Shown: positions 3,001 to 57,000 of the stretch, in pieces
Position numbering within the stretch: the first letter of the stretch is position 1
How the letters are laid out: each line of letters opens with the position of its first letter
NCBI RefSeq assembly: GCF_018977255.1
Contig: NW_024704948.1
Coordinates: forward strand, 1-64,000
DNA length: 64,000 nt
DNA from: Callorhinchus milii
Lineage: Eukaryota
Direction of reading: 5' to 3'
Made by a program: the position numbers

Positions 3001-6000
3001 GCTTTAATCTTCTTCTGCATTGAAACCGAAACAAGCGAACATAATGCTGCTAACAAAATGAAGCACATTTGTTCCCGAAACGAGAACCATTAAGTGCGGC
3101 TGCTTACTTGGGAGAATGACAATTAAACATAGACTCAGCAATTTAAATTGCTTCTTGAGTAACCTAAGGCCACGCCGTAGGCAAATCTTTGTAAATTGCA
3201 GTTGATCCAGTAACAGTGTATATGATGGAAATATGTCACCTGTAACAGGAAGCAATCTGTTATTGCTGACAAGTCAATTAGTTACAGAAAGGAACCTGAC
3301 AAGTTATCTGAGTTGCAGCTCATGTTATATATGTTTTGGTTCGCCATCTGCTGGTGGATTGCAGCTAAAGCACGTGTACAGTTGGAGACATTTGACAGCA
3401 AATAGTTCACGGCTAATCTTATCTTTCCCAGTTGTGAATGTTTCTGTATAAAAGAAAGTTGTTGTTTTGGATGTACGTCAACTTATTTAAACAGCACAGA
3501 TGGACATGCACACGTGGCGAGACTCCCAAGGAAGCAAGACGTTTGAAGTTATTTATGTGAATGTAGCATTATTATGTTTAATAATGATAATAAAATTCAT
3601 TGCATTAATTCACTTGGAAGAGCGCCATATCTCGTATTCGAGACACTTCAAATCGCTTCACAGAATAGACTGTACACGAGTTGACTGCATATTGTGTGGG
3701 TGAAACGCGGCAGTCAATTGCTCCCATCAGTGTCCCACTGGATTGAATGAACATTTCAGTAATAATATTATTGTTTTGAAGGAATTATTACCGCTGGGAA
3801 ATCGATTCGCCAATCGAATAACAACCGGGTTCCTTCTTTTACTGCTCGTCGAACAGAGTTGTTCGTGGAATAAGGAAACGTGCACAAAGCGAGGCGAATC
3901 CTCTCTCTACTGAGCTACAGGACTCCACCTGACAGTTTTTGTAGGGAGGAATCGCTGATCTGTGCCTCTGTGGGGCTCAGTGCACAGTAATACACTGCGG
4001 AGTCTGTAACTCTCACTTGGGATATATTTATGTGAACGGTTGTCTCCGCTTCAGACACGTTCGTTGAGAATCGTTCTTTTGCAAAGTCTGCACGTTGCTG
4101 CTTGTTATTCCTGATGTAGGTATTAAGGATATATTCTGGAGCTTTGTTGGGATAGTGACGGTACCAGAACAGATATGTATCGCTGCCGCTTGTAGCTGTG
4201 TAGTTACACTGCAGATAAACAGCCTCTCCTTCATTCACTGTCACAGTAGATTGGAGCTGTGTCACAGAATCTCCTCCACAATATCCTGTGAACAAGACAA
4301 AAATCAGCGTTCAATACAATAACAACGTTAATAATAATCCTATTCCCTCTATTTGATACGACTCATCGTGTCTTCGAAACATTACAAAGTACTTCACGGA
4401 AAACACTTTAACTGTATTTCTTCGGCCAATGCAGCTCTCAGTTATGCAGCAGCCCTCAAACCGTCGTGGTTTGATTGAATGAATCGTAAACAAAATCGTA
4501 GGGATTTTCCTACCATGAAAATCCATTCGCAAATTCACTTACAACGGATTCCTACAGCTATTGAAACAGAGTCGTGTGTTCGTTGTAACCAAATTCCCCT
4601 GAGGTTTCTCACTGCCCAGGAACCAAACCCAGGTCCTCGCTCTTGCGATGCGAGTGCTATATCAACTGAGCTACAGGACACTATAACGCCACAAGTCCTG
4701 TAGCGTTTTGCTTATCTAATGCAAGAAAATAGGCATTGGACAATATCTGCGGCATAGAGACTTCTTGAGCGAGTTGATGGCTTACCTGACAAGATAACGA
4801 TGGCGGCCACATAGATATACATTGTCATATGTATTTAATGGCAACGGGCGTTGACAGTGCGTTGATCCTGTAGTTGGAGAATGTTTGGTGAGAGGAAGTA
4901 CGATACAGTGATGAGCTGAATAAGAAATCACACACAGAAGTTGCCATATGCCGTGAAGGAGCAGGTCTGAGGGTTACGTACTAAACTTGTGTCTCTCTCG
5001 TTGCTCGTCATCTTCTCTGCGCTGCCATCTCGCTCCTCCATTGGTTCTCTTCCATCACTGACATGTCTCTGTAGGTCCGGGTGTCTGACACATGGAGCAA
5101 GTTACTCCCTCCTTAAACTCCTCCAATGCTTGTACATGAGTTCCACTTTTCTGTTCCCTTGAAGGAGTCATCCTCATCAGTTAACTTTTCGTGTCACGAG
5201 GCGGAGAATGGCCAAGAAACAAGACGAGGGGCAAGTAAATCTCTGTTGGGCGACACTCTGATCATGTACTTATTAATTGACTTTTATTACTCAGGTCCGC
5301 GCTTGTTATGCCAACTATCCGATGGCAGGACAATCCCTCCTCGCCTTCTCGCCAGTCCCCAACCCCCGCCTTTCACAAACAGCAGATTTTCACATCTCTG
5401 CTTCCATAGTGACAGTAATCAGTGCATTTGATATAGTTCCTGATCACATTACTGTGACCTCTCATAGCGCTTCTCAGCTTTTGCATTAAACTGTAGTGAC
5501 TGTTTGTTATGTGGACTAAACGCGGCAGCCCATGTGCACGCAAGTTGTCTCACAAGCAGTGCTCGATGTTGTGAGCACATTTGAAAAACAAGTCCTGTTA
5601 TCAACCTCTCAAAACTTTATCGCTGAAACAAAATTTGTGTGAAATTGGTTCCCGAGTTTCGCCCATAAAATTCACAGTCACGACACATTATACTGCATTC
5701 TCTGCAGTGCTGTGAGGCATCGCGGAGACGAGACGAAGCGCTGTATCAAATGTCAATAATTATTGTGATATAGACGGTTAAAACGTGGTCGGATGTTGTA
5801 CTAAGTGAAAGCCCCTGAGTGTGTGCAGACGGCTGGAAACGTTCTGCCAGTTACTGTGTTGTACGACTTATTTCGCGGAATGATCCTTCATACATCGTCA
5901 TATAGTTTTCTTAAACTGGTGTCTGACATATGTGGAAACCATTTCCATGCATATGATTATCCAAACCAACGTTTGGGTTATGATAAAAGCGCTTGTAATT

Positions 6001-54000: not shown

Positions 54001-57000
54001 CAACTAAAACCTACGTATTGCTAGGTAATCAGACGCCTAATAATAATAATAATCCTTGCATTTGATATCGCGCTTTTCAAGTCGGGAGGACGACCCACAG
54101 CGCTTCACAGAACACACTGTAAAGTGAATTGACTGTATATTTGTGGGCGAACGCGGCAGCCAATTGCGCACAGCAATGTCCCACAAACAGTCGTAGATTA
54201 AAAATGACCGATTTATTATTGTTTTTGTTTTTTGGAGGGATTAATATTAGACGTGTGGAGTAAGGAAACTTGCCCAAGGTTTCGCCATGACCTGCCTGGG
54301 AATGAACTCTGGTCTCTCGCTTGCAAAGCGAGTGCTCTCACCACTGAGCTACAGGATTCCGCATAAGGAGTAAGGAAACATGTCCAATGTTTTGCCCTGC
54401 CGGGAATCAACCCACGTCTCTCGTTTGCGAGGCGAGTGCTCTAAACTTTGAGCTCCAGTAACCTCAGCATGTTTTTGTACAGGTCCCTCTTAGACACACA
54501 GCACTGTGCTGTCCGCACAGAAGTAAGTGGCGGTGTCTGACACTCGCACGTCTTGGATTGTTAGAGTGCAGCTTCTCTGTTTTGTATTAACCAAAGCTCT
54601 TATCCTGTCCTTCACTGTTATGTCTCTTTTTCCCAAAACCAAGAACCGGATGGAGCCGTTTCCATACTGTGTGTACCACTGAAAGGTTGGGCCCGACTCA
54701 GTGGTGGTGCACTCCATAGATGCGTTTCCATTTTCATGCTGTTTCACGGTCTGGGGTCTCTGTGATACATCGCTTTCAGCCAAAGCATCTGTGCAGATAA
54801 TAATAATAATAGTAATTTTTATTATTATTAGAGAGAGAGAGACTGAGCGAGAGAAAGACTGAAAGAAGGAAACAGAAAGACTGAGAGTGAACATATTATT
54901 AAATGTCGTGACTTCGTGATTTGATGGAGAGACTGAGAGAGTGACTAAGACAGACAGAAAGAATGAGGAGGAAAATATGTTATAGAAGGTAGGGACGCTG
55001 TTTTTTTGAAGTATAGACTGAAAGGGATACTGAGAGAAAAACAGAAAGAGTAACAGGGCGAGAGAGAGAGCAACGGAGAGAGATGGAGAGAGAGAAGAGA
55101 GGGGGAGACTGAATCATATCGAGACTGAGGGTAACTGAAAGAGAAAGACTGAGAGAGAGAGGTAAAAACTGTGAAAGAGAGAAAGATTGAGATTGACGGA
55201 GAGACACTGAGATAAAGACAGAGTGAGTGAGAGTGAGTGATTCCCTACTTACATAAGAATAATATCATTATACTCAAAATAATAAATGTTGCCTTGAAAT
55301 TTTGCTTCATTCTTAACTCTCACGCAAAATTCTTTAGTAAAATGCAATGGCTAATCAGCTAAAGGCAGATAAACGTTTAGAAACGTTTGTCGAGCGACGT
55401 TAGCTGTGTCGCTTATGATTATATTCTCGGTGACGCCTTCACTAACTGCTCACTTCCTGTATATCTGGTTGTGCAAAATTCATTCACGAATCGACTAACA
55501 CCAGGACTCCGGTTTACTGAGAAGTAAACAGAGGCGATTGTGTTGATGAGAAAACAATCCCAAAATTGCTCTCTGCTCGAAAAGTGAACACACGTCCTCT
55601 CCCCTATAACGCTGCAGTCTCCCTCTCTCTCTCTCTCTCGCTGTATCTCAGACGCTATTTCTCTATCACTATGTCTTTCTCACTCAGTTCATCGNNNNNN
55701 NNNNNNNNNNNNNNNNNNNNNNNNNNNNNNNNNNNNNNNNNNNNNNNNNNNNNNNNNNNNNNNNNNNNNNNNNNNNNNNNNNNNNNNNNNNNNNNNNNNN
55801 NNNNNNNNNNNNNNNNNNNNNNNNNNNNNNNNNNNNNNNNNNNNNNNNNNNNNNGTCATGCACTTAGTCTCTCCCTCAATCAGTCTCTCTCACAATCTCT
55901 CTCTCTCTCTACCTCTCTCAGTCTCTCTCAGTTTCTCACACACAATAACTCTCCAACCAGTAATCTGAAGGATTTCTACCGATTAATTTCCAGAGAGCAG
56001 CGGGATAGACTGGGGGCCCAACCGCCATTAGTGAGAGGATTGTAGGTATCGGGCAGGTCTCCATTGTTTGGGATGGTCCCAAATTCAGGTTATGGTCACA
56101 AGAGAGAGAATCCGGTTTATTTTTCTTAGACAGGGTGAAATGTCAGGCAGGTTCCCTTATTCCACACACACACCCGTGCCTCCACTTACCGAGCAGTAAC
56201 ACGCTTGTTATTCGATTGGCAGATCGCTTTTTAGGTTTAATAATTACTGAATATTAGCAATGGTAATTTTATTCGATCCAATGTTGTATTTGGGACACTG
56301 CCGTGTATTTGCCAGCCACGTTTCCCCCCAAAAATGCACAGTGAATTAAATGTGCATTTTATAATGTGAAGAGTTTGAGACGTTTCAAAGTCATGATAAG
56401 TCGCCATATCAAATAAAAGAGTATTATTATTAATGAAATTGGTAGTAGAATTAGCATTATTTAAATCTCATCAAATGATAATAATAATATCATAATAAGA
56501 GAATTATTACTATTATATTATCATTCAACCGACCTCAGAGACCTCCGACCTCTCTACCAATCTACTCGCTCCCTCCGATTAGAAGTCTCCTTCTGCTTCA
56601 GATTCCCTGCCACGTCTGCCCCAACATTGTCGGGCGGACCTTCAGCCACTCTTTGCCCGCCCTCAGGGTGCAGTGCCACCGTCTCGCCCCCTCACTTGGC
56701 TCCTTCAACACCCACTTCAAAACCTCCTCTTCCACCTTGTCATCAGTTAACCTACTTCCCAACAGAAACACACCACCCAACCCCTTTTTCCACCGTCACG
56801 AAACCCCATCGGCCCAAATTCACCCCTGTGTTTACTTCCCCTCAAGGAGGACAAGTCATTTAATGATGAACATTGTGGGCAGTTACACAGCTTAATATCA
56901 CCCCCTGGCGGAGGTAACGAGTACTGCAGGCTTTATTTTCAATTTGAGCACATTGTAAACCACAGTAAAAGGTTACACAACAGCCACCCGGTGAGATGTA

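What the first reader, a model, noticed from the sequence alone, without database searches (positions are those of the whole stretch)
3900..54508. tRNA-SINE heads sit immediately 3' of RSS nonamers across unrelated V families
Seen: a co-oriented SINE begins about 5 nt after the nonamer in all seven B genes and within about 12 nt in all five C genes. It begins about 90-190 nt away in V1, V7, V13, V10, V18 and V21. Headless SINE cores abut V6 and V15. The offsets differ by family, which implies several independent insertions. Established: tRNA-SINE A/B boxes recruit TFIIIC/Pol III and can position nucleosomes or insulate, and RSS-proximal elements raise V accessibility in mouse Igh. Inference: either insertion preference next to RSSs or retention as accessibility elements. 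Against selection: the B box is deleted in V2, V8 and V14 and degraded in several others, and SINE density here is high.
[Added by the scan's program, not by the reader: the finding's places include an assembly gap (unread letters, written N; its length is only estimated) at 9758 to 9787, 31347 to 31476. Whether the letters on both sides are continuous or in frame is not known: test that first.]
Basis: partly seen in the sequence, partly recalled or inferred. Interest (0 to 1): 0.68.

Follow-up and report, generated by a model that had tools for sequence, protein, structure and literature searches.

The report
SINEs abutting chimaera TCR recombination signals
In an elephant-shark T-cell-receptor V-gene cluster, old SINE retroposons sit directly after the recombination signals of two V families because a few ancient insertions were later copied by gene duplication, and nothing shows they are kept for a function.

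Summary
The window is a Callorhinchus milii TCR alpha/delta-type V cluster: 22 V segments, all on the minus strand, each with a 23-RSS. A profile built from the window's own SINE copies puts a co-oriented tRNA-SINE 6 nt after the nonamer in 7 of 7 family-B genes and 5-8 nt after it in 5 of 5 family-C genes. It lies 100-190 nt away in V1, V7, V13, V10, V18 and V21.

The 12 adjacent cases are not independent, because the window is built from segmental duplications. They reduce to about three old insertions: one in B and two nested in C. Their putative target-site duplications overlap or touch the nonamer. B and C SINEs are no closer to each other (59-65%) than to unrelated copies. The headless core at V15 is a clean 169-nt deletion.

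Counted once per family against the local SINE density (35% of the window), the closeness is still unlikely (p about 1e-2 to 2e-4, post hoc). This favours an insertion bias at the nonamer.

Retention for Pol III/TFIIIC function is not supported. Heads evolve like the SINE bodies, A/B boxes are no better than elsewhere, the B box is deleted in V2, V8 and V14, and V22's head is split by a younger SINE.

A conserved non-SINE block with a CTCF-like motif follows 6 of 7 B genes and is the better regulatory candidate.

The parts
881..1435 (-). V1 (family A): 23-RSS 1397-1435; full SINE 881-1296 starting 100 nt after the nonamer
   Evidence: ARAGORN tRNA-like 1221-1292
3580..3972 (-). V2 (B): RSS 3934-3972; SINE 3580-3927 starting 6 nt after the nonamer; B box deleted
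5978..6642 (-). V3 (C): RSS 6604-6642; SINE#1 6235-6595; then 5'-truncated SINE#2 ending at about 5978
8625..9279 (-). V4 (C): RSS 9241-9279; SINE#1 8873-9235; SINE#2 ending at about 8625
10552..10977 (-). V5 (B): RSS 10939-10977; SINE 10552-10932; A box 9/9, B box 8/9
12628..13055 (-). V6 (D): RSS 13017-13055; headless SINE (profile 88-378) 12628-13006, 10 nt after the nonamer
14806..15360 (-). V7 (A): RSS 15322-15360; SINE 14806-15220, 101 nt after the nonamer
17577..17969 (-). V8 (B): RSS 17931-17969; SINE 17577-17924; B box deleted
19968..20632 (-). V9 (C): RSS 20594-20632; SINE#1 20224-20585; SINE#2 ending at about 19968
22272..22695 (-). V10 (E): RSS 22657-22695; SINE (profile 23-300) 22272-22543, 113 nt after the nonamer
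25692..26117 (-). V11 (B): RSS 26079-26117; SINE 25692-26072
27824..28088 (-). V12 (D): RSS 28050-28088; SINE 3' fragment (profile 245-378) 27824-27957, 92 nt after the nonamer
31657..32211 (-). V13 (A): RSS 32173-32211; SINE 31657-32071, 101 nt after the nonamer
34432..34820 (-). V14 (B): RSS 34782-34820; SINE 34432-34775; B box deleted
36867..37197 (-). V15 (A): RSS 37159-37197; headless SINE (profile 80-346) 36867-37141; a 169-nt deletion relative to V13 removed the spacer and the head
39436..39625 (-). V16 (B): RSS 39587-39625; SINE 39436-39580 with most of the body deleted; its 3' flank holds the best-kept copy of the putative target-site duplication, which includes the nonamer
41807..42452 (-). 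V17 (C; V exon looks truncated): RSS 42414-42452; SINE#1 42049-42408; SINE#2 ending at about 41807
44009..44597 (-). V18 (E): RSS 44559-44597; SINE 44009-44368, 190 nt after the nonamer
47900..48327 (-). V19 (B): RSS 48289-48327; SINE 47900-48282; the only RSS-adjacent head that still scores as tRNA in Rfam (48208-48279, 39.9 bits)
50033..50296 (-). V20 (D): RSS 50258-50296; SINE 3' fragment 50033-50165, 92 nt after the nonamer
51836..52276 (-). V21 (D): RSS 52238-52276; SINE (profile 1-297) 51836-52115, 122 nt after the nonamer
53498..54508 (-). V22 (C): RSS 54470-54508; SINE#1 split into 54361-54461 and about 53758-54036 by a younger nested SINE at 54038-54360; SINE#2 53498-53747
28611..30517 (+). 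Partial, tandemly duplicated LINE ORF2 3' part (28611-30258). It is followed twice (30288-30365, 30440-30517) by about 75 nt that resemble the SINE 3' domain (37 net matches over about 78 columns) and end in (GTT)n. Probable partner LINE tail.
   Evidence: Pfam found no family
47016..47245 (-). Conserved non-SINE block with a CTCF-like motif downstream of V19. Paralogous copies: 24777-25006 (V11), 3208-3403 (V2), 34060-34255 (V14), 17233-17401 (V8), 39076-39283 (V16). No copy is seen for V5, where it would fall about at the gap.

Best explanation
These are ordinary retroposon insertions multiplied by gene duplication, probably helped by a local insertion bias.

The element is the abundant tRNA-derived SINE of Callorhinchus milii. 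It is about 375 nt long: a tRNA-like head with A and B boxes, a core, a 3' domain shared with a CR1/L2-type LINE, and an (ATT)n tail.

Long ago one copy inserted at the nonamer of the ancestral family-B V gene. Two copies inserted one after the other at the nonamer of the ancestral family-C gene: first a 5'-truncated one, then a near-full one into the first one's 5' junction. In each case the first-strand nick of target-primed reverse transcription fell inside or within 2 nt of the A-rich nonamer. The nonamer, or its 3' end, was therefore part of the target-site duplication, and the SINE head ended up 6-14 nt downstream in the V-gene orientation.

Tandem duplication of V cassettes then copied these junctions to 7 B and 5 C genes. 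Since then the SINE heads have decayed like neutral DNA. They are passengers, not maintained Pol III/TFIIIC elements.

Shown: positions, orientation, duplication structure, independence of the B and C SINEs, lack of extra conservation.
Inferred: the target-site duplications and nick positions.
Unknown: why the nonamer region was hit repeatedly.
For: Species and locus:
- The V5 exon is 100% identical to a C. milii UniRef entry.
- All 5 V families tested, one gene each, match the Pfam V-set domain.
- Among chains with one V domain, the best solved-structure matches are TCR alpha and V-delta-1.

SINE anatomy:
- Consensus with an A box at 11-21 and a B box at 55-65; 4 Rfam tRNA hits.
- The 3' domain resembles the sequence that follows a LINE ORF in the same window.
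- This fits the tRNA-derived major SINE and CR1-like LINE that share 3' ends in C. milii (PMC1845163, passages read).

Duplication: blocks of 1-4.8 kb at 73-97% identity link V1-V3 with V7-V9, V1-V2 with V13-V14, V11-V12 with V19-V20, and V4 with V17.

Independence: a star-like identity matrix.

Putative target-site duplications, tested with anchored alignment against random window 20-mers:
- B: p = 0.003 (V16), 0.03 (V5).
- C#1: p = 0.0007 (V17), 0.004 (V9), 0.006 (V3).
- C#2: p = 0.004 (V3), 0.013 (V17).
- The same 8-nt word recurs at all three family-C junctions, as two nested insertions predict.

Non-randomness per family.

No selection signal.
Against: - I chose the junctions after seeing the sequence, and I quote the best lineages. 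No duplication is detectable in V2-type B genes (p = 0.83) or in V22 (p = 0.38 and 0.33). Without anchoring, only V16 of 7 B genes is nominally significant (p = 0.012; the other six 0.34-0.75).
- A CATG-like word precedes the head in 6 of 12 other SINE lineages against 8.9% expected. The element may therefore carry a 5' leader. In that case some of what I call target-site duplication in B and C is SINE sequence, or microhomology.
- A general preference of this SINE for A-tracts could not be shown. The 3' flanks of other copies are not A-rich, and the non-RSS AAAAAC sites in the window are too few and are paralogous.
- In deep comparisons the first 25 SINE positions next to the RSS are somewhat better conserved than the rest: 34 of 50 against 212 of 391 identical columns, p = 0.07. 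Weak constraint close to the nonamer is therefore not excluded.
- The statistics rest on one window and on 2-3 events.
Confidence: 0.6

Rival explanations
1. Pure chance plus duplication. Two or three random insertions in a region that is one-third SINE happened to land next to nonamers. The rest is copying and post hoc pattern-finding.
For: Only 2-3 independent events underlie the 12 cases. If C's two events count as one, the Poisson P(>= 2 events in 5 x 15 nt) is only 0.010. The landmark was chosen after looking. SINEs also abut other landmarks, for example the leader-intron SINEs of B genes that end about 20 nt before the V-exon splice acceptor.
Against: With three events P = 5e-4. Fisher's test over five families gives 1.3e-3 to 1.8e-4. 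All three elements are co-oriented with the V gene, and their putative duplications all start within a span of about 12 nt around the nonamer.
Confidence: 0.2
2. Boundary effect. The V exon plus RSS is an island of constrained sequence in a SINE-saturated region. Deletions trim neutral DNA until a SINE abuts the nonamer, so the adjacency reflects where constraint ends and not where insertion began.
For: V15 shows exactly this: a clean 169-nt deletion ending 14 nt after the nonamer. V6, V12 and V20 look like further deletion derivatives. B genes are also bounded on the 5' side by an intron SINE.
Against: In B and C the complete or near-complete heads and the putative target-site duplications that include nonamer bases point to direct insertion, not trimming. 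Families A and E, and V21 of family D, have kept 100-190 nt of spacer.
Confidence: 0.1
3. Retention by selection. The tRNA heads act as TFIIIC/Pol III-bound or nucleosome-positioning accessibility elements for the adjacent RSS.
For: The junctions have survived since the SINEs diverged by about 25% from their consensus, and through many duplications. V5 and V11 keep near-perfect A and B boxes. There is a weak trend to higher conservation of SINE positions 1-25 in deep comparisons (p = 0.07).
Against: Heads are not more conserved among recent paralogues (p = 0.90). The B box is deleted in V2, V8 and V14, which have open V exons. C heads score 6-7 of 9 on both boxes, no better than unrelated copies. 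V22's head is split by a nested SINE. Only 1 of 12 heads still reaches the tRNA threshold. The weak trend covers the bases nearest the nonamer, not the B box.
Confidence: 0.07
4. One ancestral event. B and C inherited the RSS-SINE junction from a common ancestor or exchanged it by gene conversion.
For: Both families show a similar short word between the nonamer and the tRNA-like part.
Against: B and C SINEs are 59-65% identical, no closer than either is to unrelated copies. The RSS spacers are unrelated. C has a two-SINE structure that B lacks.
Confidence: 0.03

Closest known systems
Major tRNA-derived SINE of Callorhinchus milii with its CR1-like partner LINE. Listed as SINEX-1_CM/SINE2-1_CM with CR1-2_CM in a table of the review PMC3747384; described in PMC1845163 (passages read in both).
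   Same: tRNA-like head with A and B boxes, a 3' end shared with a LINE that has a microsatellite tail, and very high copy number.
   Different: Identity to the database consensus could not be tested because no repeat library is on hand. The local share is 35% of the window, against the 7-8% of the genome reported for the most abundant SINE (PMC1845163).
RSS-associated CTCF-binding sites of mouse and human VH genes (PMC6746451, abstract and passages read)
   Same: An element at a fixed short distance downstream of the V nonamer, in a fixed orientation, shared by whole V families.
   Different: The mammalian sites are CTCF motifs 17-19 bp (human 19 or 48 bp) from the nonamer and are as conserved as the RSS. 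Here the adjacent element is a decaying SINE head with no CTCF-like match. The CTCF-like motif of family B lies 378-1149 nt away, about 232 nt once the SINE is subtracted in V2 and V16.
Target-primed reverse transcription with LINE-specific target-site duplications (PMC4245944, abstract and passages read)
   Same: Flanking direct repeats and 5' truncation, with possible microhomology at 5' junctions.
   Different: That paper reports 15-bp duplications for human L1, 5 bp for zebrafish ZfL2-1 and about 12 bp for Nimb-2_DR. The putative duplications here are about 12-16 nt, and the nested V22 copy has at most 3 nt. A preference for RSS nonamers has not been described in any paper I found.

Membership tests
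tRNA-derived SINE (LINE-dependent retroposon) | 5' part derived from a tRNA, with internal Pol III A and B boxes | tested here: met
   4 Rfam tRNA hits inside SINE heads; 3 ARAGORN hits; the consensus has TAGCTCAGTGG at 11-21 and GGTTCGATTCC at 55-65.
tRNA-derived SINE (LINE-dependent retroposon) | 3' end shared with a partner LINE, ending in a simple repeat | tested here: met
   About 75 nt after the LINE ORF at 28611-30258 align to SINE positions 301-378. The tails are (GTT)n and (ATT)n.
tRNA-derived SINE (LINE-dependent retroposon) | Dispersed copies flanked by target-site duplications | tested here: inconclusive
   103 hits in the window. Anchored flank similarity p = 0.0007-0.03 in the best lineages and none in others. 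Junctions were chosen post hoc.
SINE2-1_CM / SINEX-1_CM (named C. milii families) | Sequence identity to the database consensus | not testable with these tools
   No repeat library is available. The names come from a table in PMC3747384.
23-RSS of a TCR V segment | CAC-heptamer, 23 +/- 1 spacer and A-rich nonamer directly 3' of a V-set exon ending in Y-x-C | tested here: met
   21 sites plus V1; V-set domain in one gene from each of the 5 families; ORFs.
RSS-associated CTCF-binding element | CTCF core motif about 17-19 bp (or 48 bp) downstream of the nonamer | tested here: not met
   A scan with the consensus CCASYAGRKGGCRSY and up to 2 mismatches gave 11 matches, none inside an RSS-adjacent SINE head. 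The B-linked matches are 378-1149 nt from the nonamer.
Pol III-active SINE / TFIIIC-bound element | Intact A and B boxes at tRNA-like spacing | tested here: not met
   Near-intact only in V5 and V11 (9/9 and 8/9) and partly in V19. The B box is deleted in V2, V8 and V14. C heads score 6-7 of 9. Spacing is odd in V16 and V22.
Pol III-active SINE / TFIIIC-bound element | Occupancy by TFIIIC or Pol III in lymphocyte precursors | not testable with these tools
   Needs ChIP or transcript data from C. milii thymus.

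The most novel reading that the evidence does not exclude
The RSS nonamer region of germline V genes is a true hot spot for CR1/L2-type target-primed retroposition in a holocephalan. 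The cause could be the shape of the A-tract DNA, a positioned nucleosome, or protein bound there in germ cells. SINE heads are then repeatedly delivered a few bases 3' of the nonamer in the V orientation. This places a potential Pol III start site, with its upstream factor footprint over the RSS, next to many V genes, and some copies (V5, V11, V19) may still influence RSS accessibility.
Probability: 0.2. Interest if true: 0.6.

Novelty: new member of a known kind. Interest (0 to 1): 0.33.

Why it matters
If the bias is real, retroposons would be a recurrent source of sequence change directly beside recombination signals. That would bear on how antigen-receptor loci tolerate and perhaps reuse mobile DNA in the oldest jawed-vertebrate lineage.

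As it stands, the finding mainly shows two things. First, a striking 12-fold pattern collapses to about three old insertions copied by cassette duplication. Second, the RSS tolerates foreign DNA from about 6 nt beyond the nonamer.

The by-product may be more useful for studying the evolution of V-gene regulation: a conserved block with a CTCF-like motif downstream of one V family.

Tried and rejected
- Unanchored flank comparison for B: only V16 was nominally significant (p = 0.012). The other six gave 0.34-0.75.
- V2-type B genes and V22 show no detectable target-site duplication.
- Test of an A-tract target preference with non-RSS motifs. ACAAAAAC occurs 17 times, 16 of them as RSS nonamers. 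Of 30 AAAAAC sites that are neither nonamers nor inside a SINE, the 5 with a co-oriented SINE 5' end within 21 nt fall into two paralogous groups, and one group looks like the SINE's own A-rich linker. The test is uninformative.
- The 3' flanks of other SINE copies show no common start.
- Pfam found no family in the LINE ORFs. The CR1/L2 assignment rests on the shared tail, on PMC1845163, and on my recollection of L2/CR1 C-terminal motifs.
- The single-event or gene-conversion origin of the B and C junctions was rejected.
- A CTCF motif inside the SINE heads was rejected.
- Four + strand CTCF-like matches are the coding 3' ends of family-D V exons and were set aside.
- Literature: no paper reporting SINEs next to RSSs turned up. 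One lead, PMC2904447, describes a SINE upstream of a feline C-region gene in the TCR gamma locus, not at an RSS.
- Not done: other chondrichthyan or other C. milii loci could not be examined.
V exons and the intronless GPCR ORF were searched alone.

Full report
WHAT THE WINDOW IS

The window has five N runs: 9758-9787, 14641, 22170, 31347-31476 and 55695-55854.

A scan for heptamer, 12/23 spacer and nonamer found 28 sites. Of these, 21 are minus-strand 23-RSSs lying directly 3' of V-like open frames. V1's RSS, with a weaker nonamer, was found by reading.

One gene from each of five families (A-E) matches the Pfam V-set domain. The V5 exon is 100% identical to a Callorhinchus milii UniRef entry, and all 20 hits are C. 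milii proteins. Among solved structures with a single V domain, the best matches are TCR alpha chains and V-delta-1. An intronless GPR139/142-like ORF at 58813-59751 is 82% identical to a C. milii protein.

The window is therefore an elephant-shark (holocephalan) TCR alpha/delta-type V cluster. It is not human.

THE ELEMENT

I built a profile from eight copies and rebuilt it from its own hits. It finds 103 matches covering 22,419 nt (35% of the window), 66 on the V strand and 37 on the other.

The consensus is about 375 nt long. It has a tRNA-like head (A box at 11-21, B box at 55-65), a core, a 3' domain and an (ATT)n tail. Rfam scores four heads as tRNA, and ARAGORN calls three, two of them as tRNA-Ala.

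A partial, tandemly duplicated LINE ORF at 28611-30258 is followed by about 75 nt that resemble the SINE's 3' domain and end in (GTT)n. This fits the published description of the major tRNA-derived SINE of C. milii, which shares its 3' end with a CR1-like LINE; each covers 7-8% of the genome (PMC1845163, passages read; names in a table of PMC3747384). The local SINE share is thus several times the reported genome value.

THE OBSERVATION

One search gives the distance from the nonamer to the nearest co-oriented SINE 5' end:
- B: 6 nt in 7 of 7.
- C: 5-8 nt in 5 of 5.
- A: 100-101 nt in V1, V7 and V13.
- E: 113 nt (V10) and 190 nt (V18).
- D: 122 nt (V21).
- Headless cores: 10 nt (V6) and 17 nt (V15).

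The B-box deletion in V2, V8 and V14 is a 51-column gap.

No junction is near a gap. The flanks of gap 31347-31476 are co-linear with a paralogue. Gap 9758-9787 lies between two different duplication blocks, so its continuity cannot be tested. I did not infer any gap letters.

HOW MANY EVENTS

Self-comparison shows that the window is made of segmental duplications at 73-97% identity: 3-7575 with 13904-21557, 701-5837 with 31477-36653, 24217-28443 with 46456-50654, and V4 with V17. Adjacency within a family is therefore inherited.

SINE lineages form a star. Each is 70-79% identical to the consensus and 55-65% to the others, and B against C is 59-65%. The B and C SINEs are thus independent and old.

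Family C carries two SINEs in tandem: a near-full copy, then a copy truncated at about position 108. The flanks suggest two nested insertions:
- The truncated copy's flanks share a 12-14-nt repeat that starts inside the nonamer (p = 0.004 in V3, 0.013 in V17; 0.12-0.33 in the other three).
- The near-full copy's flanks share a 12-13-nt repeat that starts 2 nt after the nonamer (p = 0.0007 in V17, 0.004 in V9, 0.006 in V3, 0.08 in V4, 0.38 in V22).

In family B the 16 nt before the head, which include the whole nonamer, resemble the 17 nt after the tail in V16 (p = 0.003). The match is partial in V5 (p = 0.03) and absent in V2 (p = 0.83) (the unanchored test is).

V15 is V13-like with a clean 169-nt deletion. 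V6, V12 and V20 look like deletion derivatives of the family-D SINE seen whole in V21, although those alignments are less clean.

CAVEATS ON THE JUNCTIONS

I placed the junctions after seeing the sequences.

A CATG-like word lies just 5' of the head in 6 of 12 other lineages, against 8.9% expected (p = 3e-4, post hoc), and also in B and C. The SINE may therefore have a short 5' leader. On that reading the element starts 2 nt after the nonamer in B and overlaps its last two bases in C. Alternatively the word may be junction microhomology. Either way the SINE is immediately adjacent to the nonamer.

IS IT MORE THAN CHANCE

In SINE-free coordinates, with V exons, RSSs and N runs excluded (33,164 positions), P(distance <= 6) is 0.0065 for head-bearing copies and 0.011 for any 5' end. 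P(<= 14) is 0.0115 and 0.021.

With one value per family, Fisher's p is 1.8e-4 and 1.3e-3. A Poisson count over 5 families x 15 nt gives P(>= 2 events) = 0.010 and P(>= 3) = 5e-4.

These are post hoc figures from one window, and the density estimate comes from the same duplicated sequence.

WHY THERE

I could not show a general target preference. Other copies' 3' flanks have no common start, and non-RSS A-tract sites in the window are too few and paralogous. The cause of the apparent bias is open. Candidates are the A-tract's DNA shape, chromatin, or nothing at all.

IS IT KEPT FOR A FUNCTION

Among recent paralogues the heads have 21 of 229 variable columns, against 107 of 1197 in the rest of the SINE and 276 of 2414 in the flanks (head against body p = 0.90).

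A/B-box scores of RSS-adjacent copies are no better than those of other copies. Only one of the 12 adjacent heads (V19) still reaches Rfam's tRNA threshold. Large deletions (V2, V8, V14, V16) and a nested insertion (V22) are tolerated.

In deep three-lineage comparisons, SINE positions 1-25 are 68% identical in both B and C, against 54% for the rest of the same SINEs (p = 0.07) and 44% in a control intron SINE (p = 0.08). This is a weak trend confined to the bases nearest the nonamer. It does not cover the B box.

A BETTER REGULATORY CANDIDATE

A CTCF-consensus scan gave 11 matches against 3.4 expected; none of 100 shuffles reached 11. Five matches, plus a two-substitution variant at V8, lie on the V strand 378-1149 nt downstream of B nonamers.

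They sit in a block of about 200 nt present in six copies, one per B gene except V5, whose copy would fall about at the gap. The block is 72% identical across the three deep B lineages, against 43% for the first 80 nt after the SINE tail in the same alignment (p = 5e-5). Subtracting the SINE puts the motif about 232 nt from the nonamer in both V2 and V16; this is my arithmetic.

Mammalian VH genes carry CTCF sites 17-19 bp from the nonamer (PMC6746451, abstract and passages read). The shark block is a different arrangement, and its binding is untested.

VERDICT

An insertion bias at the nonamer is plausible but unproven. Selection for Pol III/TFIIIC function is not supported.

I found no paper describing SINEs at RSSs.

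Other loci and species could not be checked with the tools at hand.

Noticed in passing
47016-47245, 24777-25006, 3208-3403, 34060-34255, 17233-17401, 39076-39283 (all minus strand): A non-SINE block of about 200 nt with a CTCF-like motif follows 6 of 7 family-B genes, always in the V orientation. It is far better conserved across the deep B lineages (129 of 178 identical columns) than the first 80 nt after the SINE tail in the same alignment (27 of 63). No copy is seen for V5, where it would fall about at the gap.
   Followed up: partly
4309-4681, 18308-18671, 35156-35480, 11311-11569, 26453-26785, 48662-48998, 39974-40371; family A: 1779-2151, 15704-16079, 32557-32932, 37538-37902: Every B gene, and also the A genes, has a co-oriented SINE in what looks like the leader intron. 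In B it ends about 20 nt before the V-exon splice acceptor. V exon plus RSS is therefore a small island bracketed by SINEs on both sides.
   Followed up: partly
10-12 nt upstream of SINE heads, e.g. 8380-8390, 43530-43540, 44369-44379: A CATG/CATC/TATG word precedes the recognisable head in 6 of 12 independent lineages (8.9% expected). It is either an unrecognised 5' leader of the SINE or junction microhomology.
   Followed up: partly
whole window: The SINE makes up 35% of the window. The published survey reports that the most abundant SINE covers 7-8% of the C. milii genome, and human and mouse TCR loci are reported to be poor in SINEs (PMC1845163; PMC2904447 citing Glusman 2001). Two-thirds of the hits share the V-gene orientation.
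   Followed up: partly
28611-30674 (+): A tandemly duplicated 3' part of a LINE ORF2 with two copies of its 3' tail, ending in (GTT)n. The tail resembles the SINE 3' domain. Pfam found no domain in the ORFs.
   Followed up: partly
23428-24032 and 45324-46172 (+): Long open frames rich in P, T, S, H and Q with an obvious internal repeat. They lie upstream of the two family-E genes (V10, V18). They are probably a minisatellite rather than a gene.
   Followed up: no
58813-59751 (-): An intact intronless GPCR ORF of 312 codons, 82% identical to a C. milii protein named probable GPR142 and about 50% identical to many shark GPR139-like proteins. It flanks the V cluster.
   Followed up: partly
RSS heptamers at 3972, 17969, 34820, 39625; also families A and E: V2, V8, V14 and V16 have the heptamer CACAGAG. 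Families A and E have CACACTG. V1's nonamer has lost the leading AC. V17's V exon looks truncated and is probably a pseudogene.
   Followed up: no
37141-37159, 13006-13017, 27957-28050, 50165-50258: Deletions downstream of the RSS recur in families A and D. The clean one (V15) leaves about 14 nt after the nonamer, and V6 keeps only 10 nt of flank before its headless SINE. This suggests that little beyond the nonamer is needed.
   Followed up: partly
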